Below are positions 27,379 to 56,078 of a stretch of DNA of 64,000 bases, piece after piece. The position numbers were made by a program, and so were the translations under genes. Below the pieces are notes generated by a model that was not told where the DNA came from, made no database searches, and was given only the letters and a program-made list of their open reading frames with translations. The stretch is from a virus (Duplodnaviria > Caudoviricetes). Every line of letters starts with the position of its first letter. The stretch's first letter is position 1. The stretch covers positions 1 to 64,000 of the IMG/VR virus record IMGVR_UViG_2890388907_000005; one strand, written 5' to 3'.

Positions 27379-27393
27379 CGCACTTCCTATGCG
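27379..27393 (-). promoter_or_regulatory. GGA-loop leader hairpin (lysis operon)
   Basis: CGCAU-AGGAA-GUGCG. Confidence 0.6.
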
Positions 27394-27431
27394 TTCACGG
27401 GAACAGGTCTACCAGATGTCGCCCCGCCCCG

Positions 27432-30400
27432 CTAGTTGTAGATGGCGGGGGCGAGGCCTTCACGCAGGCGTCTATCCAGCTTCTGGTTCAGGCTGACGCC
27501 GCCCTCGTTCCGTTCGGAGGATCGCTGTCTCGCCTGCACCGACTGCCGGATCGTGTCGGAGGTGATCGGGTATTCGGGCCAGCGGGCATTGAAATCGCGG
27601 ATCGCATCCAGAACCCCGTCCGGGATCGCGTCGCCCGCCCGGATCGCGTCGCCGGCGCGCCGGTGCAGCCGCTTCCTCTCCTCGATGACCTCGGCCTCCT
27701 TGTTCTTGAGACGCGAGTTGATGTCGTAGCGTTCGGCGATGCGCGCGGGGGTGAAGCCGTTGGCCTGCAGGAGCAAGCCCCAGGGGCTGACATCCTCGAC
27801 GATCAGGTCGCCGTTCCGGGTGGTGACGCCTTCGGCGGCATAGCGCCCGGCCCTGATGACGTCGCGGGCGAATTTCGGAACCAGCGCCTCGATGCCCCGC
27901 GCATAGTCGCCATCGGCAACATTCTGGGCGCCGCGGCCCATGCTGAACAGGATCCCGACCGTTGGACCAAGGGCTTCGTTGACATAGTGCTGCACCATGT
28001 CCTGCCCCTCAAGATCGCGGTCCGGGGGGCGGAACCAGAGGTTCGGCATGCCGATCCGCTCGGACAGGGCGATCCCGGTGACCTGCCCGGGAACCCCGTT
28101 CAGTGCGGCCCCCATGGCGAAGTTCCATGCCGCCGCGCCGGGGGTGTCCTTCTCGGCGAGCAGGGCGTCCTGCAGCCATTCCTCCAGGTCATCGGAGTCG
28201 CCGGGGAAGAACAGCGCCAGCAGCCCCATGACCAGGCCATAGCCCCAGGTGCCTGTGATGCCGGCATGCGCCATCATCGACAGGGTGACGCCCACCAGCT
28301 GCACCCGGGCTTCCCGCCTCTCCTCGGCACTGGCTCCATGCAGCGATTGGTGGGCGTCGCGGAACAGCCGGTAGAGCGAGTTGACGGTGAACTGCCTGAA
28401 CTGAAGGAACAGCTTCGGCCAATCCCCCTGCATCATCCTCGGACGATCGCTGTTCTGATAGCTGAAATGGATGCGCCAGGTCAGATCTGCGGCGCGGTCG
28501 ATGGCGAGATCATGGGGAACACCCTCGCCACGCGCGAGCCGGTAGGCGGCGAGATAGGTGATCTCGCGGTTGAACCTCTCGGCATGATGGAAACCCCAGC
28601 CGATCCGGCGCATCCATTTCTCACGCCAGGGATTGAACTCCACCCCCGATTCCGCGACCGCGGCGAGATCATGGGCCTGCGTCTTGTCGATGACGCCGCG
28701 CCGGTAGCCCTCCGCCATCGCCGCCTTTTCCGCGTCGCCGATGTCGGCGTTCTCGACGCTCCATTGATCCTTCCAGGAGGCCCCACGGCCGCGCCCGAAG
28801 TCCTTCGCGGCTTGGCCAAGCGCACCGACGATGTCGCCCAGAGAGGTGCGCGCGAAGGCCGCCCGCATCATCGCGGGACCGATCACCGTGGTCTGCGTGA
28901 GGTTGACGATGGCCGCGGCCGGCGAGACCCCCAGATACCAGACGAAAGCCAGAGAGGATGCGGCAGCCGACCAGCCGGAGCCGGTCGGGTTCATCGTCCA
29001 CTCCTTCCGCCTGTTCATCTCGTTGACCAGCGCGACCATGCGATTGCGGTCCGCGGAGACCGCGGCTTCGTCGAAGGCATCCTCGACGGCATCCTCGAGG
29101 TCGATGCCATGCTTGAGGCGCGCCAGCTGGTGGGCGCCGTGGAACATGTGGTGAGAGAAGGCGCGCAGGGCGTCCCTGTTCCAGCCTTCGCGCCCCTTGC
29201 GGTGGATCTTGGAGGTGCGGATCGACTGGTCGGGCAGCGTTTCCAGCCAGCGTTGCCAGATCATGTCCATGACCTCGGCCGACACATCCGCCCCGGCCAG
29301 CATCGTTTCGATGTCGGCGACGAAGGTCGGATCGACCTGATCGCGCAGCCCCCCGCGCTTCGCCAGAAGGCCATGCTCCACCCGCCCGGGGTGGGAGGCC
29401 TCCATTTCCTTGACATGGGCGGCCTGCTTCGCCTCGGTCTCGAAGCGCGAGAAGCTGATGACCTTGCCCTCGGTGTCCCGCACCGTCACGAAATAGTCGC
29501 CGAAGCGCGCCAGCGGGAAATACGGGCCCTTGAGCCGGTTGCTCTCGAACTGTCGGCGCAACTCCTTCATCCGTGCCCCGGAGCCCCAGCCGCCCCGCAG
29601 CTTCACCTTGTCCAGTCTCTCCTTCGCCTCGGCCTCGGCCGCGGCCCTCTCCTCGGCTTCAAGGCCCTCGTCGGCGATCCTGCGCATCTCGCGGCGATAC
29701 TCCTTCTCCGCGCGCTTCATCGCAATCTTCGTCGCCTTCTCGATGTTCTCGACGATGGCGCGCTCGAAGTCGTTGCCCAGCCGGTCGTATTCCCGCATCA
29801 CCTCGCCGTAGAGGGCACGATGCGCCTCGGGCAGGGCCTGATACATCTCCGAGATGCGGGCGTAGGCGCGGCGGCGGCGGGCGGCATACTCGACCTGATC
29901 CTTGGCCCAGAGCGGGGCGTCATCGCCGTAGCGGCTGATCGCATCCCGCGCCCGGTCCAGCCACGCGCTGTTCCAGGTATCGGGTCCGGTGGGATCGACG
30001 CCGGCCTGGGTGGAGCGATGCATGAGGTCCATCAGCGCCGCATTCGCGGCGGGATCCTTGGCGGCGAGATCATACCATTTCTCCGCGACGCCGGCGGAGC
30101 GGGAATGCCACTGGTTGCGCAGCGCATCCATCTCGTCCTTCACCCGCAGATAGCGGCGCGCCCCGTTCAGATGCTTCCCCATCTCCGCGAACAGTGGTCG
30201 CCCCGGCACCAGCGCGAGAAGCGACAGGTTCTCCGCCGCCATCCGGTCGGTGATGATCGAGGAGACCCAGCGGCTCACCGACTGCCGGTCGATCCGGCCC
30301 AGCGTCCCGCGGAACCGGTCCCGCGACGGGATCAGCCCCGCCCGTAGCTCGCTGGATCCCGAAGCATCGCCCGTATGATTTCCGCCGCCTCGGCGTCGTC

Positions 30401-33400
30401 CTTCATCAAGGACTCGAACTCGGACGGCGTCAGCGGATTTATAATTCGCGAGGTATCGGGCCTCGGACTCGGTGAGGGAGTCGAAGCCGTGGCCTGTGGC
30501 GGCGATGAAGTCTGGTTCGAGGTCGCCATGCCGCTCGCGCAATCTGGAAAGGGTTTCCGGGGACAACGTCAATGTGGCGCTATACTGCTTCCCGGTCAAG
30601 GCGACAGCCCCGATGACCCTTCCGCCGCCGGCTTCGATATGGGCGGCCAGCGTGGCGAAGGTGCCGCCTTGCGTCAGTGTATCGTCCAGCAGCAGGTAGT
30701 CCCGGCCAGGTTCCACCGGGCCATTGAAGACGGGTTGCGCGAAGATGCGGTCCAGGCCGCCCAGCGCGGTGCGGTGCGGGGCATTGGTCTGGCCGATCCC
30801 CGTCGCGGGCTCAAGGCCCAGCCGGGCGGCCAGAACCTCGGCCGCCGCCCGCGGGATCTTGTTGCGCCCCGTCGCTTCTTCGGCCACGACCGGGACGATC
30901 AGGGGCTTTGCATCGCCCAGGGCGGCCCTGACCTGCGCGACCAGATCGTCGGTCACCTTGTCGACGGCCAGGCGCGTCGCGGCGGCAAGATCGCCAGCCT
31001 TGGCGGCGGCATAGTCTGGGTGCGAGGAGACCGAGGCGAGTTCGCCGGCGATGATGACCCGGGGGATGGACACCCGCCCGCGCATCTCGGCGCCCATGTC
31101 GGCACCCGCGGCGCGCCGGCTGCCGCCCGGCCCCTGCGGCCCGCGTCCCCCGATCTCGCCCCGCGCGATTTGCTCCATCGTCATCGCCGCGGAGACGAAG
31201 CCCCGGCCGCGCAGCAGGTTTGCCACGGCCTCGACAAAGGCGCGGATGCGCGCCAGCGCCCGGCCCGCCGGTCCGGTGGCCTCACGGCCCTGCGCCCAGA
31301 GCCGATAGAGCTCGGCAACAGCTTCCTCGGCCTGCTTGGCGTCGGTGAGATCGGGATAGCGGGTCCGCACCCAGTCCATGATCTCGGCATCGGCGCGGGC
31401 GGCACGTTCCAGCGCCGCCCATTCTTCCGGCCGGAACAGCCCGAGCGGACGGTTCCAGAGCCGTTCGCTGCGCAGCGCATGGATGATTTCGTGGCGCATG
31501 ACCCCGCGGGCGTCATCCCCGGCGGCAACGTCGATGCGCCCGCCGCCGGCGGTTCTGAAGGTGCCCTTCACCTCGACGCCCGACGCGCCCAGCAGCAGGC
31601 GAACCGCGCGGACGGTCACCTTCTGGTCGAGCCCGTGCGCTTTGAGATCGGCGTTGAGATCGCGGGTGATCCCGGCGAGATCGGCCTCGGCGAGTTCGTC
31701 GCCTCCCGGGGTGGCGACGACGGGCCGGTCGCGCATCTCCGCGGCGGCTTCCGCCGCCTCATCGCCGCGCCTCATCTTCGACCCTTCGGAGATCTCCGGA
31801 GCCTCGAAGGCGCGTTCGTCATAGAGCGGGACGCCGCTTTCGCTCCTGACCTCCATGTAGGGGACGTCGCCTTGTTCGGTGGACACGAACCAGCCGGTGG
31901 CGAGCCAGCGATGGCCGGTGACCACCCGCTCCTCCCCATCGACATAGATCAGGGTGTCCAGTGGCGCGCCGGCGCGGAGCCAGCCCGGTGCCGGCACCGG
32001 GTTCGCCTCCATGTCGGCGAGGATGGCGTCGCGCTGCGCCTGCTTCTTCGCGAGGTCCCCGGCCTGCTGGAACGGTTCGTCCTGCGCGCGCTCCAGCCGC
32101 GCCAGCATCGCCCCGTTCTCGTCGATCAGCCTTTCGCTGTCGGAAACCGCGTCGGCGATCCGGCGGATGGCCGCCTCGATCGACGGCAGGGTCATCTTGC
32201 CGACCCGTCGCTCCGACTTGCGGATGATGTCGATCGACACGTCTTCGACGCGATAGGAATAGCTCGGCTTCTCCAGGCGGATGGCGAAGCCGTTCACCTC
32301 GACTGGAACGATCTCCGTGGAGCCTTTGCCCATGCGGGTGGCGGCTTTCGCCAAGAATTCCGCGATGGCGACCTCCGCCGGAGCGCGTTCATCGAACCTC
32401 TTGCCGTCTACGGTGGCGGAGAAGGTGCCTGCCGCCCGGATCCCGGCGACATGGGCGGCATCGTTGCGCAGCGGCGGCAGCGTCTTTTCGAGCGCCTCGG
32501 TCTGGGCGGTGATCTGGCGGATGCGGCGGGTGGCATCGGCGATGCCGGCGACATGGATGCGTTCGCGCGCCTGCAGCCTCTCCACCGCCTTGTTGAGCTT
32601 GGAGACCAGCATGAGGCGGGGGTCACCGGCGGCTTCGGACAAGGTGTCGGAGAGCGAGCCACCATCCATTGCCTCGGCATCGTCGGTGGCGTCGCCCTCG
32701 ATGACCCGCACCCCCTCCTTTGCCCTGAGAAAGGCCTTGATAAAGCGTTCCTTGATCGCCAGAACCTGCCAGCGCCGGCCATCAAGCCCCTCGGTCAGAT
32801 AGCGGTATTCCTCCACCGTGTTCCAGGTGTTGCCCTGCCGCTCGCCCCGGCCGTTGCGCTGTTCGAGATCGCCCGGCATCCATGGCGCATCGAGGTGGTG
32901 CATCGCCCGCAGGTATTTCTGCATGTTGACGCCGACACCCAGGGTCTTGGTCTGGCCGATCACGACGCGGATCTTCAAGGCGTTCATCGCGTCGGCGATG
33001 GCCTTCTTCTCCTCGGCGCTGACCCCGCCGGCGACGATGGCGATTTCCTCGCGCCTAACTCCCTTGGCAACCAGTTTCGCGACAATGTCGTCGGCAAGAT
33101 TGAACTTCCGCTTCTTCGTGCGGGTCTTGTTGCCGTCCGCATCGGTGCGCGTGGACACGGTTTCCGAGGAGTAGCCCTCGTCCATGAACAGCACCTGGGT
33201 CGCCATCGGCTGGTCCAGGTAGATCTGCGCGATCCTCCTGACCGCCCGGTTCGCTTTGGACAGCGGGTGGTCCTCGGCGTCGGGCTCCTGCAGGCGCGTA
33301 TCCATCGAGGCGCGGTTGGGGACGTTGTTGAAGACGATGGGGGAGTCCGGCCCACCGCCGCGCATGATCTCCCGCCGCTGCTTCCCGTTCGCCTGCTTGA

Positions 33401-39400: not shown

Positions 39401-41309
39401 CCAGCATGGTCTTCGACGGCTTCTTCGCCCGGCGGATCGCTTCATCGACGGTGGCGAGGCGCGAAGCGGCCTGCTCGGGCGACAGCGCGTCGATGTCGGC
39501 GGCTGGATCGCGCGGCGTCTCCGCTCGCCCCTTCGGTGCGGCCTGCTGCGCCAAAGCGCCCGGCGCCGGCACCTGCGGCGCAGGGCCAGGCGCGTCGGCG
39601 CCCGGTGCGGGCTTCGCCTTCTTCGCCGCCTCCGCGGCGGCATCGGCACGGCGCGCCGCATTCAGGGAGATGTCGAAGGCCTCCGGGGTCAGATCGACCT
39701 CGCGCCCCTCGATCCTGACGATGGCGCTGCCGCCGTCCTCACGCTGGAAGACGCCGTCGACGATCGAGCCTTTCTCGTCCATCAGCCGCACCGCCGCCCC
39801 GGGCTTCATGTCGGGGAAGGCCGGAACCGGTTCCACCTCGGGAACGGGGGTCAGATCGGGGGCAACGGTTGCGGCGCGGCCGATCGGGCCGGCCGGAGCG
39901 GCATCGGGCGGCAGCGGCGCCGCACCGATGTCGAAGACGTCGGACCCCGCTTCCTGGGGAGGGGCGGAAGCGGGGTCCATCCCGCCGGCGGTCCCGGCGC
40001 CTGCAGGATTCGGTGAGGGGCGCTCGCGCAGCGTCGGATCGCTGACCGGGCCAGCGCCGAAAATCGTGCCGCCGCGGTTCGGCGCGGGAAGGGCGAGCCG
40101 CGCCGGGGGCGCCTCGGCATCCCGCTGGCGCCCCTGAGCCGCCCCGACAACCGCGCCTGGCCCGGCACCGCCCATGGCGCCGAGGGCGAAGTCGGCGAAG
40201 GTGCCTTCGGTCAGAGAGGCGTCGTCTCCGGTGACGGTCTGCGCGCCGGCGCGCGCCGCCATCGACTCCGCCACCTCCTGGGCACCCTCCTCGATCCCCG
40301 AAAGACCGCCGATTCCCAAGGCGCGGGCGGCAACCCCGCGCGATGCCAGCGCGGAGACGGGCTTGTTCAGGATGCGCTCGGTGACGGCGCCGCCGATGGC
40401 GGCCGGAACCGCCTGAGCCACCCCGCCGGCGGCTTCGGCCATGGTGGTGACCCGCGAGATCGCATCTTCGACGGAGGCGCCCGACGCGATGGCGTCGCGG
40501 AAGACCGCGGAGCCTTGTTCCAGTGCGGCGCGGCCCTCGGAGGTGCCCGCAAGCGCCTCGACATGCTCGCGGCCGGCATCCATGCCTTCCCCGGCGCCCA
40601 TGGCGGCGCCCGCGGCCATAGCCGCAGCCGGGCTCTTGGTGGCCAGCGCCACCGCAACCATGGGCAGGAAGGAACCGGTGGCCTGGGCGGCATGCAGGGC
40701 GACCCCGCGCAGCGAGGGGTCTTCGCCCAGCGTCCAGGTGGAGGGCTTGGTAATGTCGCCGTCGATGCCGGTCCCGGCCAGCGCGGCCTTACCCCGATCC
40801 GAGACACCTTCGGCCAAGGCGTCGCCGCCGCTCTGCACCCATTCCCCGGCCCGCTTCGCCAGCTCACGCGCCTTGGTCTGATGCGGCAGCAGCTGGCCGC
40901 CCGATCCGACGAGTTCGGCCCCCAGCCCGAGTCCCTTGATCGCCGCGCCGGCGCCCTGCAGGGCGCCCCCGGCGACCTGACGGCCCAGATCCCCGACAAG
41001 GCTCCCCTCGTCGGTCGCCGGAGGCGCCTCGGATGCGGCGCGCGGGTAGAGTTCGTCGGCGAGATCATAGGCCCGGTTCAGCACCGGCGCCGGAAGGACA
41101 TCCTCCAGCGTCTCGCCCGCATCCAGCCGCCCCCGCAGCGCCGCGGCTGCGCGTTCAGCATCGACGCCGGCCTCCTCGATCGCCATGAGGACGTTGGCGG
41201 GGATTTGCGCCGACGAGGCCAAGGCCTCCACGCGCTGCCGCCTGATCGCCGGGTCGGAGGCTTCAGGAATAGAACCCGCGGGGCCGAAGCCGAACGGAGT
41301 GGTGGCCAT
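27432..41309 (-). CDS. giant DarB-like polyvalent virion protein (PPase-like, N6-adenine MTase, SNF2 helicase, zincin, PRTase, PLxRFG)
   Basis: DYGYIRGTTGADGDHVD/FDEHKVMLGF; VLEPAMGVGNF and IGNWPF; HEVGTGKT, DESH, EQRNGRGERQGN; HEIIH; LLDDTLTQGGT; YFPLARFG. Confidence 0.92.
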   Translation of the reverse strand: MATTPFGFGPAGSIPEASDPAIRRQRVEALASSAQIPANVLMAIEEAGVDAERAAAALRGRLDAGETLEDVLPAPVLNRAYDLADELYPRAASEAPPATDEGSLVGDLGRQVAGGALQGAGAAIKGLGLGAELVGSGGQLLPHQTKARELAKRAGEWVQSGGDALAEGVSDRGKAALAGTGIDGDITKPSTWTLGEDPSLRGVALHAAQATGSFLPMVAVALATKSPAAAMAAGAAMGAGEGMDAGREHVEALAGTSEGRAALEQGSAVFRDAIASGASVEDAISRVTTMAEAAGGVAQAVPAAIGGAVTERILNKPVSALASRGVAARALGIGGLSGIEEGAQEVAESMAARAGAQTVTGDDASLTEGTFADFALGAMGGAGPGAVVGAAQGRQRDAEAPPARLALPAPNRGGTIFGAGPVSDPTLRERPSPNPAGAGTAGGMDPASAPPQEAGSDVFDIGAAPLPPDAAPAGPIGRAATVAPDLTPVPEVEPVPAFPDMKPGAAVRLMDEKGSIVDGVFQREDGGSAIVRIEGREVDLTPEAFDISLNAARRADAAAEAAKKAKPAPGADAPGPAPQVPAPGALAQQAAPKGRAETPRDPAADIDALSPEQAASRLATVDEAIRRAKKPSKTMLDLRARLAAKVPPPEDMPAPPAAPAKAARNPVAPITTPPEQRMQPDMLGGREVSEAETASREKRRKEWGRFLAIAEGGKSSDDMLLDGREVLIRPGRVIVRAGRGASDQDRRIDTEGLDRDAIASATRGAMREMDRVAPVDMGEGNARSANVDDGAAVDQGAARRGDDNPGGSAAGAQGAAIGADDPGNRPGGADPQDGLVDAAGTGEPAGPLTGGGESAVAEAAKAADPAPTEAQKEAGNYRKGHARWKGFDLSIENPKGGTRSGVGADGAAWEVTMPADYGYIRGTTGADGDHVDFYMGPDEASDKVWIIDQKDAETGAFDEHKVMLGFASASEAEIAYLGGFSDGKGRRRLGGITAMDVPGFKTWLAGGGPSKAAATSEAPTYPYEGVEVENVRAKAAVLRGLPKDRPPQVPGVSLKWDEKEGGFIFARKHADAVLQAAYVEEDRIAAEAGKPARPAPAPARPKPAAPAPAPAAPPVLDDRREQKRRDAIEAGRKAGRAGAMREPPAWLEGDPIADDWRAGYAEGAAQRGVPAAAAPDQPAPAPAAPAAAEPAPAYGASNKLVSADRAAELRERLKAKLGSQINSGIDPEILAIGAELAVFHIEAGARRFADFARAVAADLDTTPTKLRPYLRSWYNGARDMMEDNEISIDGMDDTAAVRAAIQNLEALDTPAGEFPVSPEPAEPDTVATQPQAGTTPDGEGSGAGTGEVGEGGEPDPDGPSAQHRAGDATGEVDDRDLGGAEPGAPSGDEGVGRGDRPRARSRRKDAGRGAGLPEKRDEPVRRAAGSGEGLGDVRPGSDQPSAPGRLNYHITDPDSLFAGGPKARFAKNRRAMEVFEAVSDAGREPSPEEMDAMAGFIGWGSFGQELFQGSWAYPRPKEGWKEEDAWLREHLGKDAWASAQESIINAHYTDPPTVEAIWDAVRAMGFKGGRVLEPAMGVGNFFGMMPRDLEQNSQLTGIELEKTTGGIAKLLYPRANIRVMGYEKSRVADGFYDLVIGNWPFANIKVPDRRYDRLTPSLHDYFFLKALDQVRAGGLVVGITSAFSMDGQKNRVIRNHLAKNAELVAAYRLPSGAFEKYAGTRVVTDIIILRKRAEPKASAEGERWVQSVPWTSPAGQEIHVNQYFLDNPSHVLGELTTGHGTTYGKAGMIVNRPADLAARLKAIASALPADAYQPARRGKEPRFVATTTRDRILSITRGDDGNLYQVQGDNMARLEDVAKIATKSATETAKRMAEIGRLIEVRRAADAVMEADRAGAADAEAKRKTLKLAYDGFVKAHGPIGDSFALSVLKKLRDPNAGLVAALENGDGTPAAIMTKAVVRAAQKLDNPSIREAFVIARNESAILDIERVAELAKQPAETVIADLLDSKAIYRTPGGGYETSDRYLAGNVRVKLAAAREALDGGEDMAASVAALEAVQPPDVPYFQIEARFGADWVDAGINRAFIIETLGLANPDENDVKLTRAMTGWRVEFSDRVAHMPGASDITGAPLPGRRGTGLSLARFFEATLNTQTITVTYEDQDGTYKDTRATETANQKAADLRQKFGAWLWSEPERRVEAERAYNEAMNNTATPQIDGSFLEFPGMALTRGDEPFNLRQHQANAIWRGILNQRGIYGHEVGTGKTITMTGIAVESRRFGLARKPLLIAHNANSAAVAAEAQDTYPGAKILYINNLSPATIDTELARIATDDWDLIVIPHSLLDRLALTHDTLMVMAEEEIAAYEREAIAAAADDGFSLSVEDMDDPEKIKKMRLGVTAKEMVKARKNLLNQIEKQAQRASREGAISFEKLGVDMILVDESHEFKKPPLATRMQVKGLNLGTSNKSLALRFLTSYVKSQRNGTGVHVFTGTPITNTLAEIYHQMFYAMDDVMRAAKVDTWDGFFKAFADTISDVELTSTGEFENVERLAAFINVSELRQLAGQFMDIVFASDMPEFKPRATADGKTMRSKDLTDADRDFLENGRTEKPQGRPYKKIINDIGPMGGDQRRILDEVIYYARAFKQANGKQRREIMRGGGPDSPIVFNNVPNRASMDTRLQEPDAEDHPLSKANRAVRRIAQIYLDQPMATQVLFMDEGYSSETVSTRTDADGNKTRTKKRKFNLADDIVAKLVAKGVRREEIAIVAGGVSAEEKKAIADAMNALKIRVVIGQTKTLGVGVNMQKYLRAMHHLDAPWMPGDLEQRNGRGERQGNTWNTVEEYRYLTEGLDGRRWQVLAIKERFIKAFLRAKEGVRVIEGDATDDAEAMDGGSLSDTLSEAAGDPRLMLVSKLNKAVERLQARERIHVAGIADATRRIRQITAQTEALEKTLPPLRNDAAHVAGIRAAGTFSATVDGKRFDERAPAEVAIAEFLAKAATRMGKGSTEIVPVEVNGFAIRLEKPSYSYRVEDVSIDIIRKSERRVGKMTLPSIEAAIRRIADAVSDSERLIDENGAMLARLERAQDEPFQQAGDLAKKQAQRDAILADMEANPVPAPGWLRAGAPLDTLIYVDGEERVVTGHRWLATGWFVSTEQGDVPYMEVRSESGVPLYDERAFEAPEISEGSKMRRGDEAAEAAAEMRDRPVVATPGGDELAEADLAGITRDLNADLKAHGLDQKVTVRAVRLLLGASGVEVKGTFRTAGGGRIDVAAGDDARGVMRHEIIHALRSERLWNRPLGLFRPEEWAALERAARADAEIMDWVRTRYPDLTDAKQAEEAVAELYRLWAQGREATGPAGRALARIRAFVEAVANLLRGRGFVSAAMTMEQIARGEIGGRGPQGPGGSRRAAGADMGAEMRGRVSIPRVIIAGELASVSSHPDYAAAKAGDLAAATRLAVDKVTDDLVAQVRAALGDAKPLIVPVVAEEATGRNKIPRAAAEVLAARLGLEPATGIGQTNAPHRTALGGLDRIFAQPVFNGPVEPGRDYLLLDDTLTQGGTFATLAAHIEAGGGRVIGAVALTGKQYSATLTLSPETLSRLRERHGDLEPDFIAATGHGFDSLTESEARYLANYKSADAVRVRVLDEGRRRGGGNHTGDASGSSELRAGLIPSRDRFRGTLGRIDRQSVSRWVSSIITDRMAAENLSLLALVPGRPLFAEMGKHLNGARRYLRVKDEMDALRNQWHSRSAGVAEKWYDLAAKDPAANAALMDLMHRSTQAGVDPTGPDTWNSAWLDRARDAISRYGDDAPLWAKDQVEYAARRRRAYARISEMYQALPEAHRALYGEVMREYDRLGNDFERAIVENIEKATKIAMKRAEKEYRREMRRIADEGLEAEERAAAEAEAKERLDKVKLRGGWGSGARMKELRRQFESNRLKGPYFPLARFGDYFVTVRDTEGKVISFSRFETEAKQAAHVKEMEASHPGRVEHGLLAKRGGLRDQVDPTFVADIETMLAGADVSAEVMDMIWQRWLETLPDQSIRTSKIHRKGREGWNRDALRAFSHHMFHGAHQLARLKHGIDLEDAVEDAFDEAAVSADRNRMVALVNEMNRRKEWTMNPTGSGWSAAASSLAFVWYLGVSPAAAIVNLTQTTVIGPAMMRAAFARTSLGDIVGALGQAAKDFGRGRGASWKDQWSVENADIGDAEKAAMAEGYRRGVIDKTQAHDLAAVAESGVEFNPWREKWMRRIGWGFHHAERFNREITYLAAYRLARGEGVPHDLAIDRAADLTWRIHFSYQNSDRPRMMQGDWPKLFLQFRQFTVNSLYRLFRDAHQSLHGASAEERREARVQLVGVTLSMMAHAGITGTWGYGLVMGLLALFFPGDSDDLEEWLQDALLAEKDTPGAAAWNFAMGAALNGVPGQVTGIALSERIGMPNLWFRPPDRDLEGQDMVQHYVNEALGPTVGILFSMGRGAQNVADGDYARGIEALVPKFARDVIRAGRYAAEGVTTRNGDLIVEDVSPWGLLLQANGFTPARIAERYDINSRLKNKEAEVIEERKRLHRRAGDAIRAGDAIPDGVLDAIRDFNARWPEYPITSDTIRQSVQARQRSSERNEGGVSLNQKLDRRLREGLAPAIYN
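30332..30529 (-). CDS. possible nested +1-frame peptide after the PRTase domain
   Basis: C-terminal part LTPSEFESLMKDDAEAAEIIRAMLR is protein-like with GC-rich third positions; start unclear. Confidence 0.35.
   Translation of the reverse strand: MATSNQTSSPPQATASTPSPSPRPDTSRIINPLTPSEFESLMKDDAEAAEIIRAMLRDPASYGRG
36971..37300 (-). CDS. nested +1-frame gene (109 aa, TnpV-like pattern)
   Basis: GC3 bias lies in the nested frame while the host frame is low-complexity; stop sits at the MTase domain boundary. Confidence 0.65.
   Translation of the reverse strand: MEKAAAQALAKWAKVESRTLMDHPHNIGPGTPLEKWMIETWEAQNPGLHQAMKEWGAVTALAHVLVERMLDAERDYLKSGMNPSDARQEAVKDWAMFDPEATSPLPPGA
38765..38968 (-). CDS. nested +1-frame gene (67 aa)
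   Basis: GGGGGAAGGAA-ATG; MLDLPMWMTARQSIKALLAAGMITPEEA...; stop just before the PPase-like domain. Confidence 0.6.
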   Translation of the reverse strand: MLDLPMWMTARQSIKALLAAGMITPEEARLARKALRSERTIQGTDPVAPILKMVWLTQLAPASLQVH

Positions 41310-41335
41310 AGCAAAACCTCACGGGTCTGGACTAT

Positions 41336-41358
41336 GGCTGACACATCCTATGGCAGCC
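41336..41358 (-). promoter_or_regulatory. GGA-loop leader hairpin (giant protein)
   Basis: GGCUGcCAU-AGGAU-GUGuCAGCC. Confidence 0.6.
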
Positions 41359-45034: not shown

Positions 45035-45483
45035 CAGTGGCCTCCTTCCAGCCAGGTGCATTCTTCGCGCCTCATCCCGAACAGGATGGCATCCTCGCCG
45101 GTGAAATATCCGCCGCGGAGGCGCGCCTCGAACTGAAATCCGGCGCGCAGCGCCGCGATCTGCGCGGGATGGTTGCTCACCGCGGTCAGCGTCGTCATCC
45201 GGCGGCACCCGCGATGCAGGAACACATAGGCGCCCACCAGCTTGAGGATGCCGCGATCCGCCCAGCGCCGCGATCCGTTCGAGGCGGTATCGAGGGTGCA
45301 GGCGCCGTTCATGAAGCAGCTGGCCGTGATCACCGCGACGATCTGGCCGTCGTCGTCCACGACTCCCATCGGGACCGCGTCGGGCGGCAGCCGGCCGGGG
45401 GCGAGCCCAAGGCGTTCCTCCGCCCAGGCGCGCAGCGGCGCGACGAGATCGGCTCCCATGATGAGGTCGAGCGGCATGGACAT
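45034..45483 (-). CDS. GNAT family acetyltransferase
   Basis: YVFLHRGCRRMTTLTAVSNHPAQ...AGFQFEARLR...GEDAILFGMRREEC. Confidence 0.8.
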   Translation of the reverse strand: MSMPLDLIMGADLVAPLRAWAEERLGLAPGRLPPDAVPMGVVDDDGQIVAVITASCFMNGACTLDTASNGSRRWADRGILKLVGAYVFLHRGCRRMTTLTAVSNHPAQIAALRAGFQFEARLRGGYFTGEDAILFGMRREECTWLEGGH

Positions 45484-45500
45484 GCTCCGGGCGTCAAATG

Positions 45501-45519
45501 GCGGCACGTCCTATCCCGC
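45501..45519 (-). promoter_or_regulatory. GGA-loop leader hairpin (ejection operon)
   Basis: GCGGgAU-AGGAC-GUgCCGC. Confidence 0.55.
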
Positions 45520-45551: not shown

Positions 45552-45926
45552 CTAGCGCAGCCTCGCCAGCACACCGGAGAGGACAAGCAGAACGATCGTG
45601 ATGATGCACAGCAGGAAGGCCGGGATATTCCCGACGACGGCCGATGCCGCCGCCCAGGCGCCCAGCGTGACGAACCCGAGATCGGCGAGCCCATCCGAGG
45701 GCGATGCGTCGGCTTCACGGACCTGGGCCGCCTCCCAGATGCCGTAGACGATGAAGACGGTGAGGATGGCGATCGCGTCGCCTGCGATTGCGGCCAGTAT
45801 CGCGGCGGGGGCCATGCCGAAGATGACGGCATGGGCGCATTGGTTGCCCGCCCACGCCTCCGCATCATCGGGATAGGCGGAAGGCGTCTTGAACAAGTGC
45901 AGGAACAGGCCGATCAGCTTCTTCAT
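45552..45926 (-). CDS. membrane protein
   Basis: 3-4 hydrophobic segments; ATGA coupling. Confidence 0.7.
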   Translation of the reverse strand: MKKLIGLFLHLFKTPSAYPDDAEAWAGNQCAHAVIFGMAPAAILAAIAGDAIAILTVFIVYGIWEAAQVREADASPSDGLADLGFVTLGAWAAASAVVGNIPAFLLCIITIVLLVLSGVLARLR

Positions 45927-46504
45927 CCCAACGCTCCTGTGATCTGGGAAATTGCGGTGTCCAGCCCGGCGGTGGCTGCGTCGATCTCCGCGCGGGTCGC
46001 CGCCGCCGCGATGGCGGCTGCAGCGGCGAAGCAGGCGGCCTCGACCGGCCCGCCCATCTGCCGCCATAGCGCATTCAGGTTGAGAACGACTTGAGCCACC
46101 TCCGCCAGCGTCGGTGCCGTGCCCCCGGTTTCGATGGGGCCAACCTCCGAGACCAGCATCGGATAGTCGGCGGGATCGGGGGTTCCGCTCGCGGAGGCGG
46201 CGACGAAGGCCTGCGCCTCCATGAGCTTGACCATGTAGTAGAGGCTCTGGAACTTCATGTCGGTCAGGGTGGTCAGTCGCGTCTCCTCGCGCTTGGCGGC
46301 GACACGATCCAGCGCCATCCGCCGCATCGCCGGGGTGGCCGCGGTTTCAGGGGCGAGCGCGCCGGCGACGACGCGCCAGCGGAACGGGTCGGACAGATCG
46401 GTCTCGTCGGGCACCTCGATATGATCGCCCGGCGGCGGGGTGACGTGGGGGGCGAGCCGCATGACACCCGTGATCGCGCCATTGGCGTCGTAGTAGATCA
46501 GCAT
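45923..46504 (-). CDS. putative tail fibre assembly protein
   Basis: Coupled directly downstream of the fibre gene; YPML..E motif. Confidence 0.6.
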   Translation of the reverse strand: MLIYYDANGAITGVMRLAPHVTPPPGDHIEVPDETDLSDPFRWRVVAGALAPETAATPAMRRMALDRVAAKREETRLTTLTDMKFQSLYYMVKLMEAQAFVAASASGTPDPADYPMLVSEVGPIETGGTAPTLAEVAQVVLNLNALWRQMGGPVEAACFAAAAAIAAAATRAEIDAATAGLDTAISQITGALG

Positions 46505-50820: not shown

Positions 50821-50822
50821 GG

Positions 50823-52376: not shown

Positions 52377-53029
52377 CTCGGTTTCGTCCGCACCGGGGCG
52401 CGCTGCTGGCCTCTGATCTTGCTGGAAAAGGCGCCCCGCATCGCCTCGTCGAAGACGGCGCGGAAGGCGGTTGCGGCCTTGGCGTCGGTCCAGAGCTGGC
52501 CGGGGATCGACAGGATCCGGCTCAGCGCCCCGGCCGCGATGGTCTCCCCATGCTGGGTCAGCAGGAAGTCGGGGGCGCGGTTGTTGGCGTCGTCGAGCGG
52601 ATCGTCCGGGTCTCCGCCGAAGGACTGCCCGTGGCGCGGCTTCAGGAACAGCGACAGCCGCAGGACGCCCGGCTCGAAGGGGTAGACCGACACGGTGTCG
52701 GGGGTCACCTGGGTCAGGTATTTCGCCTGCCCGGTCATCGGGGTCTGGGCGACGCCGTCATGGGCCAGATCGGTGATCTGGGTGGGGTCCAGCGGTCGGC
52801 CGTCCAGCGTCGCATCCTCGATCTCATGGATGGCGCTGCCGGGCGGGGCAACAATCGCCTGCCCCTGCTCGTTCAGCGCGGCCTCCACCATATGCCGCCA
52901 GCAGCGCGTCCGCTCGCAGAACTCGATGGCGGCGAGGCGGGTTTGGAACAGGGCAACCGGATCGGGGCAGCCCGGGGCGCGGGGCAGGATGTAGGCGAGG
53001 AAGGGCGTCAGCTTGATCGTGGTGACCAT
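52367..53029 (-). CDS. head-tail adaptor protein
   Basis: PGCPDP...AAIEFCERTRCWR; GALSRILSIPGQLW. Confidence 0.75.
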   Translation of the reverse strand: MVTTIKLTPFLAYILPRAPGCPDPVALFQTRLAAIEFCERTRCWRHMVEAALNEQGQAIVAPPGSAIHEIEDATLDGRPLDPTQITDLAHDGVAQTPMTGQAKYLTQVTPDTVSVYPFEPGVLRLSLFLKPRHGQSFGGDPDDPLDDANNRAPDFLLTQHGETIAAGALSRILSIPGQLWTDAKAATAFRAVFDEAMRGAFSSKIRGQQRAPVRTKPRWL

Positions 53030-53038
53030 CTGCGCACC

Positions 53039-53728
53039 TCAGCGCGACCCCAGCGACATCGCCGCTTCGCCGGTGTTGATCGCGCCAAGCGCCGCGGTGA
53101 AGGAACTGTAGTGGGCGGTGGCCCGCGCCGCCGCATTGGCCTCGCCGGAGTCCTTCGACAGCGCCCGGTAGAGGACATAGTCGACCAGCGGGTTGCGGTA
53201 GAGGTCGGGGAGATCGACGAAGGAGTCGTAGGCCTCGACGTCGAGCATGGCGCTGCCGGTCGGCCCGGACAGCTCCAGCGGGACGACACCCACGGCGGCC
53301 TCGATGCGGCCCTCACCGTTGTTGCCGGGGACGACGTAGAATTGCCGGGGCGTCGTCATGTCATGGACGACATGCAGCACGGCGCGGGCGAAGGGCATCA
53401 CCGATTTGTCCTGCCAGCCCGGGATCTGGGCATCCAGCACGGACCGGTCGATGGGCCGGATCGCGGCGCCGCCCCGTTCCTCCTGGCCCTGAACGATGTT
53501 GCGGATCACCCGGGAGAGGATCGAATACTCGGCGGGCAGTTCCTGCCGGGTGCCCGCGACGAGACTGAGGATGACGATGCGGCTGTTCGCGTTGGGCTTG
53601 ATCGCGACAACCTCGCGGATCCCGTCCTGCAGGTAGGCGAACAGTTCGGCCGCGAGCCAGTGGACGGCCCCGCTGTCCTGCAGGATCGTTGAGGCGCGGC
53701 GCATCACGTCTTTTGCCCGGAAGGCCAT
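53039..53728 (-). CDS. DUF6682-like adaptor protein
   Basis: W...EL..YL.DG.RE, L.AGTRQ.LP, LVDYVLYRALSKD. Confidence 0.75.
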   Translation of the reverse strand: MAFRAKDVMRRASTILQDSGAVHWLAAELFAYLQDGIREVVAIKPNANSRIVILSLVAGTRQELPAEYSILSRVIRNIVQGQEERGGAAIRPIDRSVLDAQIPGWQDKSVMPFARAVLHVVHDMTTPRQFYVVPGNNGEGRIEAAVGVVPLELSGPTGSAMLDVEAYDSFVDLPDLYRNPLVDYVLYRALSKDSGEANAAARATAHYSSFTAALGAINTGEAAMSLGSR

Positions 53729-53737
53729 CAGGTTCTC

Positions 53738-53851
53738 CTATCGGCGCTTGCCGAACAGGCGGCGCCAGAACGACGGGCGCCGCGGGGTGCGATCGTGCTT
53801 CCAGTAGTCGCCGGGGGCGCCGGGCGTCTTCCGGCGCCCCCGGCGCGCCAT
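53738..53851 (-). CDS. 37-aa basic peptide (not in ORF track)
   Basis: TGATG coupling; MARRGRRKTPGAPGDYWKHDRTPRRPSFWRRLFGKRR; stop overlaps the next SD. Confidence 0.55.
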   Translation of the reverse strand: MARRGRRKTPGAPGDYWKHDRTPRRPSFWRRLFGKRR

Positions 53852-54339
53852 CAGGCGCGCTCCGCCCGCGTCGCCTCGATCTGTGCGATCAGCGTCTCGG
53901 CCTTGGCCCGGGCGTTCGGCTCACGGCCGACCTCCTTGGCGAAGAGATCGCGCAGCTGGTCCAGCGACATGTCTACCAGCGCCAGCGGGGTTTCCGTCGC
54001 GGGTGCGGGCGCGGGCGTGGGCGCGGGCGTGGGCTCGATCACGGTGGCGGTGGCCGCGGGTTCGACGCCGCCGGGTGCCGGGACCGGAGCGGGCGACACC
54101 TGCGGGGCCGGCGCGGGCGAGACCGGGGGGACGCCGATCGAGGTGGCGGCGGTGGTGCCGGCGAGGCGGAAGCCCTCGGCGACCCGCAGGAACTGCTGGG
54201 CGTGGTCGGCCGAGGCGATGGCGCAGACATGCCGGCCGGTGCCGTCATCGGCGAAATGGTAGGCGGTGCCGTCGCCGACGCGATGATGGCTGCCACCCGG
54301 GCGCTTCTGCAGCGCCTCGATGATGAGAATGTTGGACAT
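53851..54339 (-). CDS. hypothetical virion-associated protein
   Basis: GGGAGA SD; Pro/Ala linker and small C-terminal helical domain. Confidence 0.7.
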   Translation of the reverse strand: MSNILIIEALQKRPGGSHHRVGDGTAYHFADDGTGRHVCAIASADHAQQFLRVAEGFRLAGTTAATSIGVPPVSPAPAPQVSPAPVPAPGGVEPAATATVIEPTPAPTPAPAPATETPLALVDMSLDQLRDLFAKEVGREPNARAKAETLIAQIEATRAERA

Positions 54340-54420
54340 CAGGTCTCCCCTTTCGGTTTCGCAATTGCCCGCCCCGGCGGTGGGCCGGAGCGGGCGCTTT
54401 CAACCGTCCCTCGGACCGCG

Positions 54421-54864
54421 TCAGGAGACGACGCGGATGCGGCAGTGCAGCTTCTTGGTGGCGCCCGCGACGATGTCGGCCGACGTCTTCAGCCCGACCG
54501 AAACCGGGGTGTCGCCGTTCTGCGCCAGCGCGGCCAGCGCGGTCAGCGCGGTGGTCGCCGGGGCGCCGGCGGCACCGGCGTTGACCAGTTCGGAACCCGA
54601 GGTGCGCGCGGCGTCCAGCGAGCCGGGGCTGCCGGACATCAGGCCGATGGTCAGGTTGACGGCGCCCAGGTTCTCGGATGCGCAGTCGAAGCCGACGATC
54701 CGGCCGTAGGGGAAGATCGGGAACAGGTCGAGGATGTCGGCGGCGGCCACGGTCTCGGCAAACACATGCGTGAACATGTATTCGATCACTTCGCCCTTGC
54801 GGTGCGGGTTCGGCACGGGGGTGCGCGAGTTCCCCTTGAAATACGCGCTCTGCTTGATCGCCAT
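54421..54864 (-). CDS. putative capsid decoration protein
   Basis: Beta-rich 147 aa protein directly after the capsid gene. Confidence 0.65.
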   Translation of the reverse strand: MAIKQSAYFKGNSRTPVPNPHRKGEVIEYMFTHVFAETVAAADILDLFPIFPYGRIVGFDCASENLGAVNLTIGLMSGSPGSLDAARTSGSELVNAGAAGAPATTALTALAALAQNGDTPVSVGLKTSADIVAGATKKLHCRIRVVS

Positions 54865-54922
54865 GTCTCTTACCTTTGTGCGATGCGGAAAGGGTCAGGG
54901 GGCCGTGCGGCCCCCCGATGGA

Positions 54923-56026
54923 TCAGACGATCGCGTTGGGATCGCGGCAGTAGGTATCCAGCGCGCAGCAGCCGAAGTCGCGGCCGTTGAACCGGGTCTT
55001 CTTCATGCCCATGATCACGCCGCAGTAGATTTCGACCTGGTTGTCGGCATCCACCAGCTTCTCCACCCACGTCATCCGTGCGCCGTTGCCGGCGCTGCCG
55101 TAGGCGACGACACCGGCCTGCCGGCCCAGCAGCAGCCCGCGCGCCGCGGGCAGGTTGCCGCCGACGCCATAGTCGCCGAAGCGGCGCACCGATTCATGCT
55201 CATGAAGGACGAGGTTCGAGATCATGCCCAGACCGCCCTTGCAGATCGGGGACTTCCGACCCTCCGAGGTCGCCAGCGACTGCTGGATCTTCGACCAGGA
55301 GAGATCGCCGGTCTCCACCCGCATGTCGTAGGCCTGGAACTTCGTCATCAGCACGATGAAGTGCTTGGACCCCTCGACCGTCACCGGGCTCATGCGGATG
55401 ACGTCGGGGTTGGTCGCGTTCATCATCGTCGGCTTCACCGCGACGCGCTCAAGGAAAGCCACGTTCATCTTGTCGGCGGCGGTGAGCGTCGCCTTCGAGG
55501 TGGCGGCACCGGCGTAGAGCAGGTGGTCGGCATCCGGCGCGTGGATCGGGTTGCCGGCGAAGGGCTTGTTGAAGACGGCGTCCTGGTTGATCGCGCTGAA
55601 GTTGGCGTCGCCCGAGAGGTAGACGAAATAGCCCTCGTCGATCCACTGCGCCACATATTCCGAGGTGCGGTCCCGGGCGATGCGGCGGAGGTCGTGCAGG
55701 AGGCGCTTGCGGCTCATGCGGCCGGCGGCGGAGGCGCCTTTCCGGGCCTGGTCGATCTTCACCTCGTCGGTGTAGAAGGTCAGCGCCTCGGCCGAACCCT
55801 CGACGCGGTCATCGCCCAGCGTCATGCCGCCGCGCAGACGCATCGACAGGTCGAACTGGACGGTGTCGCCCGCCTCGTCTTCCAGATCGACCTTGCGCTC
55901 GATGATGTTGTTCTCGCCGGTCCCGACGAAGCGCGACCAGTAGCTCTGCTTTTCGGTGTCGGTGGCCAGCGAGGTGGCCCAGCGACGAACCGCTTTGGGG
56001 TCATTGACGCCGATCACGGTCTGCAT
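54923..56026 (-). CDS. major capsid protein, N4-gp56 family
   Basis: NDPKAVRRWA, AGDTVQFDL, GDDRVEG..EAL.F, IDQAR, GMKKTRF..RDFG. Confidence 0.9.
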   Translation of the reverse strand: MQTVIGVNDPKAVRRWATSLATDTEKQSYWSRFVGTGENNIIERKVDLEDEAGDTVQFDLSMRLRGGMTLGDDRVEGSAEALTFYTDEVKIDQARKGASAAGRMSRKRLLHDLRRIARDRTSEYVAQWIDEGYFVYLSGDANFSAINQDAVFNKPFAGNPIHAPDADHLLYAGAATSKATLTAADKMNVAFLERVAVKPTMMNATNPDVIRMSPVTVEGSKHFIVLMTKFQAYDMRVETGDLSWSKIQQSLATSEGRKSPICKGGLGMISNLVLHEHESVRRFGDYGVGGNLPAARGLLLGRQAGVVAYGSAGNGARMTWVEKLVDADNQVEIYCGVIMGMKKTRFNGRDFGCCALDTYCRDPNAIV

Positions 56027-56057
56027 CGGACTCTCCTTCGGTCAATACGGTGTTGAC

Positions 56058-56078
56058 CCAGGCACGTCCTATGCTTGG
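56058..56078 (-). promoter_or_regulatory. GGA-loop leader hairpin (capsid operon)
   Basis: CCAaGCAU-AGGAC-GUGCcUGG. Confidence 0.6.

What the first reader, a model, noticed from the sequence alone, without database searches (positions are those of the whole stretch)
27379..56078. Same AU-AGGAN-GUG hairpin in four late-operon leaders, with varying but paired stems
Seen on the minus strand: CGCAU-AGGAA-GUGCG (27379-27393, holin), GGCUGcCAU-AGGAU-GUGuCAGCC (41336-41358, giant protein), GCGGgAU-AGGAC-GUgCCGC (45501-45519, GNAT/ejection operon), CCAaGCAU-AGGAC-GUGCcUGG (56058-56078, capsid). Each lies about 20-50 nt upstream of the start codon, separate from the SD, and a short distance downstream of an extended -10-like hexamer (tggTAGACC, aggTATTCA, tgcTATTCT, tggTAGGAA). 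Outer stems differ in sequence yet still pair, and all close with a U-G wobble, which favours an RNA element over a DNA operator. Because the SD is not covered, the effect could be activation or stabilisation (inference).
Basis: partly seen in the sequence, partly recalled or inferred. Interest (0 to 1): 0.85.

Follow-up and report, generated by a model that had tools for sequence, protein, structure and literature searches.

The report
Phage late-leader RNA switches beside CsrA
A prophage that carries its own diverged copy of the RNA-binding regulator CsrA starts the messages for its capsid, giant injected protein, ejection genes and holin with one shared small RNA element, which can either display a CsrA-type GGA loop or fold back and cover that gene's start codon, so it is probably a phage-owned switch for late-protein synthesis.

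Summary
Observation confirmed. ATAGGANGTG occurs 6 times in the window against 0.14 expected. Four copies lie on the minus strand in the capsid, GNAT-operon, giant-protein and holin leaders. The rest of the 4.05-Mb genome has 8.

The element acts as RNA, but the drawn hairpin is not the predicted ground state. From predicted 5' ends, the most stable fold of all four leaders pairs the motif region with that gene's own start region. GGA itself is buried in three of them. Forcing the local hairpin costs 3.2-9.8 kcal/mol and exposes that region in three of four. Across 21 related capsid leaders, loop and spacer change together.

A 56-aa CsrA-family gene, the only one in this genome, sits just upstream of the capsid leader.

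Best reading (confidence 0.5): a two-state translational operator whose GGA-loop state is held by the phage CsrA-like protein. Binding and its direction are untested.

I found no printed description of targets for phage CsrA. Earlier notes of this scan reached similar readings on other DNA.

The parts
56058..56078 (-). Capsid-leader element: CCAAGCAU-AGGAC-GUGCCUGG (local hairpin 1; also the anti-start segment)
   Evidence: Sequence. 7 of 8 flanking positions pair. Conserved in 9 of 9 close relatives with 63 of 63 cells paired and 2 compensatory pairs. In the MFE it pairs with 56023-56031.
56023..56038 (-). Capsid start region: SD AAGGAG (56038-56033), spacer GUCC-G, AUG 56026-56024. Partner of the motif in the closed fold.
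   Evidence: Ruler; folds. The helix between motif columns and these columns has 80.6% of cells paired in 9 relatives, against 24-36% when slid.
56040..56058 (-). Capsid-leader hairpin 2 (GGUCAA ... UUGACC), enclosed by the long-range helix
   Evidence: In relatives the arms change together (GGAUCA/UGAUCC, GGUCAU/AUGACC). This was read by eye, not counted formally.
56088..56117 (-). Capsid promoter-like site: TTGCTC (56117-56112), 18 nt, TGg-TAGGAA (56096-56088)
   Evidence: TTG and TGGTA are invariant columns in 9 of 9 aligned leaders. The strict sigma-70 consensus scan does not list it. The start site near 56081 is inferred.
56122..56292 (-). 56-aa CsrA-like gene (stop codon included), between the scaffold-like gene and the capsid leader
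   Evidence: Pfam CsrA 31.3 and 33.5 bits against a cut-off of 27. It is the only CsrA-family match in the 4.05-Mb genome. A profile of 17 phage homologues hits RsmE 2jpp at E = 5.6e-11. The AF2 model (pLDDT 84.7) has CsrA/RsmA/RsmE chains as its top matches, TM about 0.6, E 0.04-0.4. R50 aligns with RsmE R44.
45501..45519 (-). GNAT/ejection-operon leader element: GCGGGAU-AGGAC-GUGCCGC
   Evidence: Sequence. 6 pairs with one mismatch. In the MFE it pairs over about 14 bp with 45471-45485. Duplex with its own start region -25.7 kcal/mol, p = 0.021 against shuffles.
45471..45488 (-). GNAT start region: SD GGAG 45488-45485, AUG 45477-45475. Partner segment GCAUGUCCAUGCCGC.
   Evidence: Ruler; fold. 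The 3' arm GUGCCGC repeats AUGCCGC of the start except for its first base.
41336..41358 (-). Giant-protein leader element: GGCUGCCAU-AGGAU-GUGUCAGCC
   Evidence: Sequence; 8 pairs with one mismatch. The orthologous hairpin is kept in G302 and in the record of L010.
41305..41338 (-). Giant-gene closed helix: GCCAUAGU (41338-41331, overlapping the 3' arm) pairs with GCUAUGGC (41312-41305, containing AUG 41309-41307)
   Evidence: Fold. The same helix is present in G302 with a change on both sides (AUAGU/GCUAU to AUAGA/UCUAU) and in L010's record. The duplex test against shuffles is not significant here, p = 0.35.
27376..27396 (-). Holin leader element: (GAA)CGCAU-AGGAA-GUGCG(CUC)
   Evidence: Sequence; 7 of 8 positions pair. 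The orthologous CGCAU-AGGAC-GUGCG is kept in G302.
27337..27352 (-). Holin start region: SD GAGGAG 27352-27347, AUGCG 27341-27337. Partners of GUGCGCUCC and of the 5' arm CGCAU.
   Evidence: Fold. Duplex -18.6 kcal/mol, p = 0.015 against shuffles. Enforcing hairpin 1 costs 3.2 kcal/mol and raises the unpaired probability of -13..+3 from 0.29 to 0.62.
62213..62225 (-). Possible fifth site, small-terminase leader: UGGC-AGGAU-GCCG, about 30 nt before AUG 62182
   Evidence: GGA is predicted unpaired, 1.00. A GCAGGA(U/C)GC or GUAGGAUGC element stands before the terminase gene in 4 of the 5 relatives printed (L132, L009, L015, L036; not L017). It lacks the AU/GUG closing pairs of the other four.

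Best explanation
Each element is the 5'-proximal part of a late-gene messenger RNA and works as a two-state translational operator.

Closed state, the predicted ground state: the motif (5' arm, CAU, AGGAN, GUG) or the bases just after it pair with the gene's own SD-spacer-AUG segment and hide the start site.

This frees the start site and displays GGA in a 5-nt loop.

The 5' arm is complementary both to the 3' arm and to AUG plus the next bases. That is why the arms differ from leader to leader yet always pair.

The factor most likely to choose between the states is the phage's own CsrA-like protein. It is made from the gene just upstream of the capsid leader, in a host that has no csrA. By binding the displayed GGA loop it would hold the anti-start segment away from the start site and switch on translation of capsid, giant protein, GNAT operon and holin.

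Shown here: the motif and its enrichment; arm complementarity; complementarity to the start regions and its co-variation across phages; CsrA-family membership of the neighbouring gene.

Inferred: the transcription start sites, binding by the CsrA-like protein, and the direction of the effect.
For: (1) Enrichment and placement.

(2) Transcribed position. A conserved TTG...TGGTA promoter stands 9-14 nt before the hairpin in related capsid leaders.

(3) Closed state. From predicted 5' ends the MFE pairs the motif region with its own start region in 4 of 4 leaders. The unpaired probability of GGA is 0.00, 0.69, 0.01 and 0.00 (capsid, holin, giant, GNAT). The local hairpin costs +9.3, +3.2, +8.3 and +9.8 kcal/mol. 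It raises start-region accessibility 0.38 to 0.52, 0.29 to 0.62, 0.33 to 0.35 and 0.28 to 0.56.

(4) Co-variation. In 21 capsid leaders the 10-11-nt core pairs with its own start region at mean -8.18 kcal/mol, against -5.78 +/- 0.47 for permuted partners; 0 of 20,000 permutations reach the observed value. The pairings seen are AGGAC with GUCC, AGGAU with AUCC, AUGAC with GUCAU, AUGA with UCAU, AAGA with UCUU, and GGACGCG with GCGUCC. The same pairing is seen in cultured phages Bcep22 and BcepIL02.

(5) Local hairpin. 16 of 20 outer positions pair. 63 of 63 cells are paired, with 2 compensatory pairs and 11 of 500 shuffles reaching the score. Orthologous capsid, giant and holin hairpins are kept in a phage with 72% capsid identity.

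(6) CsrA link.
- The gene is CsrA-family and unique in the genome.
- In 25 of 27 distinct capsid leaders of this type a CsrA-like ORF lies directly upstream. Two of the 25 are weak or unconfirmed.
- The loop matches what CsrA binds: GGA in a short hairpin loop, and the CsrB repeat CAGGA(U/A/C)G (review PMC7652899, passages).
- A second GGA lies in the SD 22-37 nt downstream in 4 of 5 leaders. That is within the 10-63 nt bridging range quoted.
- L021 has two CsrA-like genes, each followed at once by such a hairpin.

(7) A phage csrA matters for growth. Knock-down of the csrA homologue of coliphage PTXU04 gave small plaques (PMC11879866, passages).
Against: - No binding or expression data exist. 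No RNA run is listed, so the start sites are inferred.
- In the predicted ground state GGA is base-paired in 3 of 4 leaders. Pairing of GGA lowers CsrA/RsmE affinity (review passage).
- The fold-back leader also exists without a CsrA gene. L003 has the strongest duplex (-14.4 kcal/mol), an AUGAC loop, and no Pfam CsrA match in its 4.4-Mb genome.
- Eight CsrA-like-positive leaders have AAGA, AAGAC or AUGA loops with no GGA.
- The association between a GGA loop and an adjacent CsrA-like gene is not significant: 17 of 25 against 0 of 2, Fisher p = 0.13, and the sequences are related.
- Within the 9 close relatives the long-range helix shows only 1 compensatory pair, and 98 of 500 shuffles reach its score.
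- In the window the duplex test is weak for capsid (p = 0.057) and fails for the giant gene (p = 0.35). Cross-pairings between leaders are often as good as own pairings.
- The permutation test is inflated by relatedness.
- In JC1 only the capsid leader carries the hairpin.
- The R44-equivalent residue is not conserved in all homologues.
Confidence: 0.5

Rival explanations
1. Classical CsrA-type repression. The CsrA-like dimer binds the GGA loop as a high-affinity anchor, bridges to the GGA inside the SD, and blocks ribosome entry. This would give negative feedback on late proteins, as in glgC or B. subtilis hag.
For: A GGA lies in the SD of capsid, holin, GNAT and terminase leaders, 22-37 nt after the loop GGA. 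This is inside the 10-63 nt bridging range, and the hairpin-plus-SD layout is that of glgC and hag (review passages). The gene sits beside the most abundantly made structural gene, as csrA does with flagellin.
Against: The giant-gene leader has no second GGA. The start regions are already sequestered without any protein in the predicted folds, so a repressor adds little. It does not explain why the arms are complementary to each gene's own first codons.
Confidence: 0.2
2. A cis-acting RNA element that needs no phage protein. The 5' end pairs with the start region to protect the message from 5'-end-dependent decay, or to throttle or time translation. The local hairpin is only a co-transcriptional intermediate, and GGA is there because it complements the UCC spacer.
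For: The closed fold is the predicted ground state. It occurs with non-GGA loops and in one genome without any Pfam CsrA match. The hairpins begin 0-5 nt from the predicted 5' ends (rulers), the position of known 5' stabilisers (recalled, not tested).
Against: One 10-nt core is kept in four unrelated leaders of one phage, and a CsrA-like gene lies directly upstream in 25 of 27 leaders of this type (two of them weak or unconfirmed). This is hard to explain without a common trans factor. The three-way complementarity (5' arm with 3' arm, and with the start) argues that both states matter.
Confidence: 0.2
3. Binding site of another factor on the nascent RNA, such as a boxB/nut-like antitermination site or an RNase processing signal.
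For: A 5-bp stem with a pentaloop just after a promoter looks like boxB (recalled). The late operon is about 40 kb long, and strong GC-rich hairpins follow the capsid gene.
Against: Intrinsic-terminator-like sites are not enriched in 44000-63500: 5 found against 9.8 expected. No Rfam family matches. Co-variation with the start region points to translation, not elongation. No N-like protein was looked for.
Confidence: 0.05
4. A DNA-level element: part of the late promoter, or an operator overlapping the start site.
For: It lies 11-17 bp after -10-like hexamers, where repressor operators often sit.
Against: The half-sites are not conserved between the four copies while their complementarity is. 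The conserved U-G and G-U pairs would be A-C mismatches on the other strand. The loop co-varies with a segment 30-45 nt downstream.
Confidence: 0.03

Closest known systems
CsrA activation of ymdA translation in E. coli (Renda et al. 2020, as described in review PMC7652899; passages read)
   Same: A leader that hides its own ribosome-binding region in a helix. A GGA site whose occupation by CsrA prevents that helix and lets the ribosome in.
   Different: Here the regulator is phage-encoded and highly diverged, and the host has no csrA. One element is repeated on four or five late leaders. What is hidden includes the start codon. Neither binding nor activation has been shown.
CsrA/RsmE repression at a GGA hairpin plus SD (glgC, hcnA; RsmE-hcnA structure 2jpp)
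   Same: GGA in the loop of a short hairpin, and a second GGA in the SD within bridging distance. The protein family is the same.
   Different: The loop is a 5-nt AGGAN closed by U-G, not the 6-nt loop common in the SELEX ligands. The window core is UAGGA(N)G where the CsrB repeat has CAGGA(U/A/C)G. The giant-gene leader has no SD GGA.
B. subtilis CsrA-FliW-Hag circuit (review passages)
   Same: A CsrA-family protein tied to the leader of the most abundant self-assembling structural protein. In JC1 one CsrA peptide was found in virions (PMC9144972, passages), which leaves room for assembly-coupled control.
   Different: No FliW-like partner was sought or found. The partner-switch idea is speculation here.
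Phage Mu Com activation of mom translation (recalled from memory; no call)
   Same: A phage late gene whose start region is locked in a stem and opened by a small phage RNA-binding protein bound just upstream.
   Different: Com is a zinc-finger protein, not CsrA-like, and acts on a single target.
Annotated 'CsrA-like regulator' or 'moron' genes of Bcep22-like phages (JC1, Bcep22, BcepIL02, DC1; PMC9144972 and PMC7366521, passages)
   Same: The same gene in the same place, between the scaffold-like gene and the capsid gene. Hosts also lack csrA.
   Different: Those papers treat it as a host-directed moron of unknown role. No target in phage messages is described in the passages I read.

Membership tests
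CsrA/RsmA protein family (Pfam PF02599), for ORF 56122-56292 | Score above the curated Pfam cut-off | tested here: met
   31.3 bits (long ORF) and 33.5 bits (56 aa) against a cut-off of 27. 15 of 17 aligned phage homologues match at E <= 0.01.
CsrA/RsmA protein family (Pfam PF02599), for ORF 56122-56292 | CsrA fold | tested here: met
   AF2 model with mean pLDDT 84.7. The 13 best listed Foldseek PDB matches are all CsrA/RsmA/RsmE chains, TM 0.46-0.63, but E is only 0.04-0.8 for this small protein. The profile hits 2jpp at E = 5.6e-11. The model is a monomer and shows no C-terminal helix.
CsrA/RsmA protein family (Pfam PF02599), for ORF 56122-56292 | RNA-binding residues (R44 and L4 of E. coli CsrA; review passage) | tested here: inconclusive
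   R50 aligns with R44 of RsmE. The first strand was not aligned, and it carries an 8-residue insertion. The R44 position varies among homologues.
CsrA/RsmA protein family (Pfam PF02599), for ORF 56122-56292 | Homodimer that binds GGA RNA | not testable with these tools
   No dimer prediction was run, and RNA binding needs the bench.
CsrA binding site on RNA | GGA single-stranded in the loop of a short hairpin | tested here: inconclusive
   True for the local hairpin. In the predicted ensemble GGA is unpaired at only 0.00, 0.69, 0.01 and 0.00. The terminase-leader site is unpaired at 1.00.
CsrA binding site on RNA | Match to CAGGA(U/A/C)G, or to the SELEX consensus printed | tested here: inconclusive
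   The four window sites read UAGGA(A/U/C)G, 6 of 7 positions. The terminase site and relatives L009, L015, JC1 and Bcep22 read CAGGA(C/U/G)G. No score model was applied.
CsrA binding site on RNA | Second site at the SD, 10-63 nt away | tested here: met
   The GGA-to-GGA spacing is 33, 37, 23 and 22 nt in the capsid, holin, GNAT and terminase leaders. There is none in the giant leader.
boxB/nut antitermination site | Terminators downstream to be overridden; a boxA partner; an N-like protein | tested here: not met
   Terminator-like sites number 5 against 9.8 expected in 44000-63500. boxA and N-like proteins were not searched for.
Any curated RNA family (Rfam 15) | Match at the gathering score | tested here: not met
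   0 matches in the whole window.
5'-terminal stabiliser hairpin | Stem-loop within a few nt of the true 5' end | tested here: inconclusive
   0-5 nt from the predicted starts. The starts were not mapped; no RNA run is listed.

The most novel reading that the evidence does not exclude
A self-contained phage Csr system in a host that has none. One diverged CsrA-like protein, made in the head-gene cluster, opens self-locked start sites on five late messages: small terminase, capsid, GNAT/ejection operon, 4625-aa injected polyvalent protein and holin. It would thereby set the order and amount of virion-protein synthesis and the time of lysis. Because the protein may be carried in virions (one peptide in JC1), its removal into capsids could feed assembly status back onto translation.
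Probability: 0.3. Interest if true: 0.85.

Novelty: new variant of a known kind. Interest (0 to 1): 0.68.

Why it matters
Phage-borne csrA genes are listed in dozens of cultured phages: 71 records, and 30 phages in PMC7366521. The passages I read call them morons aimed at the host. One 2025 paper says their role in the phage life cycle had not been tested, and found small plaques on knock-down.

A conserved operator on the phage's own capsid, injection and lysis messages would give these genes a concrete target. It would explain why they persist in hosts without a Csr system, and it would add post-transcriptional control to the known ways phages time late genes.

The question is directly testable, because the same capsid-leader element is present in cultured phages Bcep22, BcepIL02 and JC1.

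The element is also a compact, portable protein-RNA switch.

Tried and rejected
- Rfam, whole window: no match.
- Strict sigma-70 and terminator scan of 44000-63500: none of the leader promoters is listed, and terminators are not enriched.
- tblastn of the 56-aa protein against phages: no match. The word-based homologue search found only the protein itself. The full HMMER scan found 5 weak relatives. Homologues were therefore taken by position next to capsid genes.
- Relatives by the 517-aa internal virion protein: 2 loci in genome contigs and 3 of 300 other genomes of the family.
- Relatives by the 568-aa protein: none in viral contigs.
- Relatives by the endolysin: 80 loci of other phage types, 364 kb in all, with 1 motif-like hairpin. 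I used these as a negative control.
- N4-type hairpin promoters read by a virion RNA polymerase: considered because the capsid is of the N4-gp56 family and a giant protein is present. The giant protein matches only InPase, helicase and LPD39 domains and one portal chain, with no polymerase. Dropped.
- 'Each phage has its own concerted closing-pair variant': suggested by L009 and L015, contradicted by L010's record, where the capsid site has AU and the giant site has GC. Dropped.
- 'The R44-equivalent tracks GGA against AAGA loops': suggestive in L021 and the AAGA group, but L012, L013 and L016 break it. Not claimed.
- Expression: no RNA holder listed.
- Supplements were not requested. Supplementary Table 7 of PMC7366521 (list of csrA-positive phages) and the supplementary discussion of PMC11879866 may bear on how widespread and how important phage csrA is.
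- Literature searches for prior description: all search listings. Passages were read in PMC9144972, PMC7366521, PMC11879866, PMC7652899 and PMC8545117. No whole text was read.

Full report
What is there.

The window's minus strand from about 62.3 kb down to 22 kb is the late region of a Bcep22-like (Lessievirus-like) podophage. It holds:
- small terminase (Pfam Terminase_2);
- large terminase, portal and major head protein (PHROGs);
- an internal virion protein and an acyltransferase;
- a 4625-aa polyvalent protein with InPase, helicase and LPD39 domains;
- an amidase endolysin.

The nearest cultured relatives by capsid DNA are Pseudomonas phage Itty13 and Burkholderia phages JC1, CSP3, BcepMigl, DC1, BcepIL02 and Bcep22.

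Checking the observation.

ATAGGANGTG gives 6 hits against 0.14 expected. Allowing one mismatch adds little: 11 hits against 4.7 expected. The whole genome has 14 hits, 8 of them outside the window. That makes four on one strand of 64 kb very unlikely by chance (P = 6.7e-7).

Only the four leader sites and one antisense site have 6 or more flanking pairs. Outside the conserved core, 16 of 20 arm positions pair (P = 1.6e-4). In 364 kb from 80 unrelated phages that share the endolysin there is 1 such hairpin.

The neighbouring gene.

In JC1 a 'carbon storage regulator' gene lies right before the capsid gene. The window has a 56-aa ORF in the same place, 56122-56292. The evidence that it is CsrA-family:
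- It passes the Pfam CsrA cut-off.
- It is the only CsrA-family match in the 4.05-Mb genome.
- It aligns with RsmE so that R50 falls on R44.
- Its AF2 model finds CsrA chains first.
- A profile of 17 positional homologues hits RsmE at E = 5.6e-11.

Relatives.

Capsid-based searches gave IMG/VR, metagenome and genome loci. I also fetched eight cultured phages.

Capsid leaders of 9 close relatives share four features in order: a TTG...TGGTA promoter, hairpin 1, a second hairpin, and the SD. Hairpin 1 keeps 63 of 63 cells paired, with two compensatory pairs and two one-sided changes that keep pairing. 11 of 500 shuffles reach its score.

A phage with 72% capsid identity (G302) keeps the hairpin at the capsid, giant and holin leaders, while the flanks have diverged. 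L010's record keeps it at the giant leader. JC1 has it only at the capsid leader. More distant relatives keep the stem but have AGGA, UGGA, AUGAC, AUGA, AAGA or AAGAC loops.

The fold-back.

Folding whole leaders recovered the drawn hairpin in only one of four. Earlier notes of this scan on other genomes said that such boxes fold back on the ribosome site, so I tested that here.

Predicted starts were placed 7 nt after each -10. From those starts the MFE pairs the following:
- Capsid: GCAU.AGGAC with GUCC.GAUGC.
- GNAT: about 14 bp of the element with GCAUGUCCAUGCCGC.
- Holin: CGCAU with AUGCG, and GUGCGCUCC with the SD.
- Giant gene: GCCAUAGU, overlapping the 3' arm, with GCUAUGGC.

Enforcing the local hairpin costs 3.2-9.8 kcal/mol. 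It raises start-region accessibility in three of four leaders.

The 5' arm plus AU is the reverse complement of AUG plus the next bases of its own gene. The 3' arm therefore mimics the start: GUGCCGC against AUGCCGC, GUGCG against AUGCG. This explains the 'varying but paired' stems.

Across 21 capsid leaders the core prefers its own start region; 0 of 20,000 permutations reach the observed mean. Loop class and spacer change together. Bcep22 and BcepIL02 show GGAUGUGC against GCACAUCC.

Weak points:
- The close group shows little variation.
- Window-only duplex tests give p = 0.057, 0.015, 0.35 and 0.021.
- Relatedness inflates the permutation test.

Link to the CsrA-like protein.

A CsrA-like ORF lies directly upstream in 25 of 27 distinct leaders of this type. 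For G170 the Pfam match is weak, and for G206 there is none.

All 17 leaders with GGA loops are among those 25. The two leaders without an adjacent gene (L003, L018) have AUGAC loops, and L003's genome has no Pfam CsrA match. With these numbers the association is not significant (p = 0.13).

The loop fits what the review prints for CsrA sites, and the SD GGA lies within bridging range. A fifth site, more canonical (CAGGAUG), precedes the small terminase gene. A similar element is present in 4 of the 5 relatives printed.

Mechanism.

I read the element as a switch between a closed form (start hidden) and a hairpin form (start free, GGA shown). The phage CsrA-like protein is the likely selector of the hairpin form, as CsrA does at ymdA.

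Repression by bridging, and a protein-free cis role, remain live rivals. A DNA operator and a nut-like site are unlikely.

Novelty.

The passages I read call the gene a moron or say its role is untested. My searches found no description of targets. This scan's own earlier notes reached like readings in other genomes, so within the scan this is a further instance, with quantified support for the two-state model.

Noticed in passing
window 33897-33906 and 51273-51282 (+ strand): Both remaining exact motif hits read ATAGGAGGTG. On the mRNA strand that is CACCUCCUAU, in the same codon phase (Thr-Ser-Tyr) inside the giant gene and the internal virion protein gene. It is complementary to the leader motif in 9 of 10 positions. 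Two hits on one strand against 0.064 expected (P = 2e-3). This is post hoc and unexplained.
   Followed up: partly
window 54865-54922, 54340-54420, 53729-53850 (- strand): Very stable GC-rich hairpins without U tracts fill the three intergenic gaps after the capsid gene and the next two genes. They may be attenuators or 3' stabilisers that set capsid apart as its own highly expressed unit.
   Followed up: no
window 1-13500: A Mu-type transposase (6925-9057, phrog_310, E = 1e-141), a ParB-like gene (9054-9953), a phrog_2030 transcriptional regulator (5524-6315) and a CI-like repressor (12786-13472, + strand). This is either the early arm of the same prophage or a second element. The boundaries were not worked out.
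   Followed up: no
L021 8240-8437 and 12836-12988: One IMG/VR phage has two CsrA-like genes, each followed directly by a hairpin. The paralogue that lacks the R44-equivalent precedes an AAGA loop. The one that keeps it (VRIERP) precedes an AGGA loop, which pairs over about 16 bp with its gene's SD and AUG.
   Followed up: partly
window 27432-41309 (-): Residues 883-1011 of the 4625-aa polyvalent protein (its InPase domain) match the C-terminal part of a solved phage portal chain, 9b41_L gp19, at E = 2.8e-24.
   Followed up: no
window 2050, 33899, 47417 (+ strand): Three plus-strand hairpins of the looser class (R-Y, AGGAN, GTG, at least 6 pairs), against about 0.15 expected from 19 in the rest of the genome. 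Two of them are antisense to late genes.
   Followed up: no
L150 (G241) 11922-12024: A distant relative's capsid leader carries GGGCA-UGGA-UGUCC, after its own CsrA-like gene. By my recall, from no call, this is closer to the Rsm-type consensus than the window's own motif is.
   Followed up: partly
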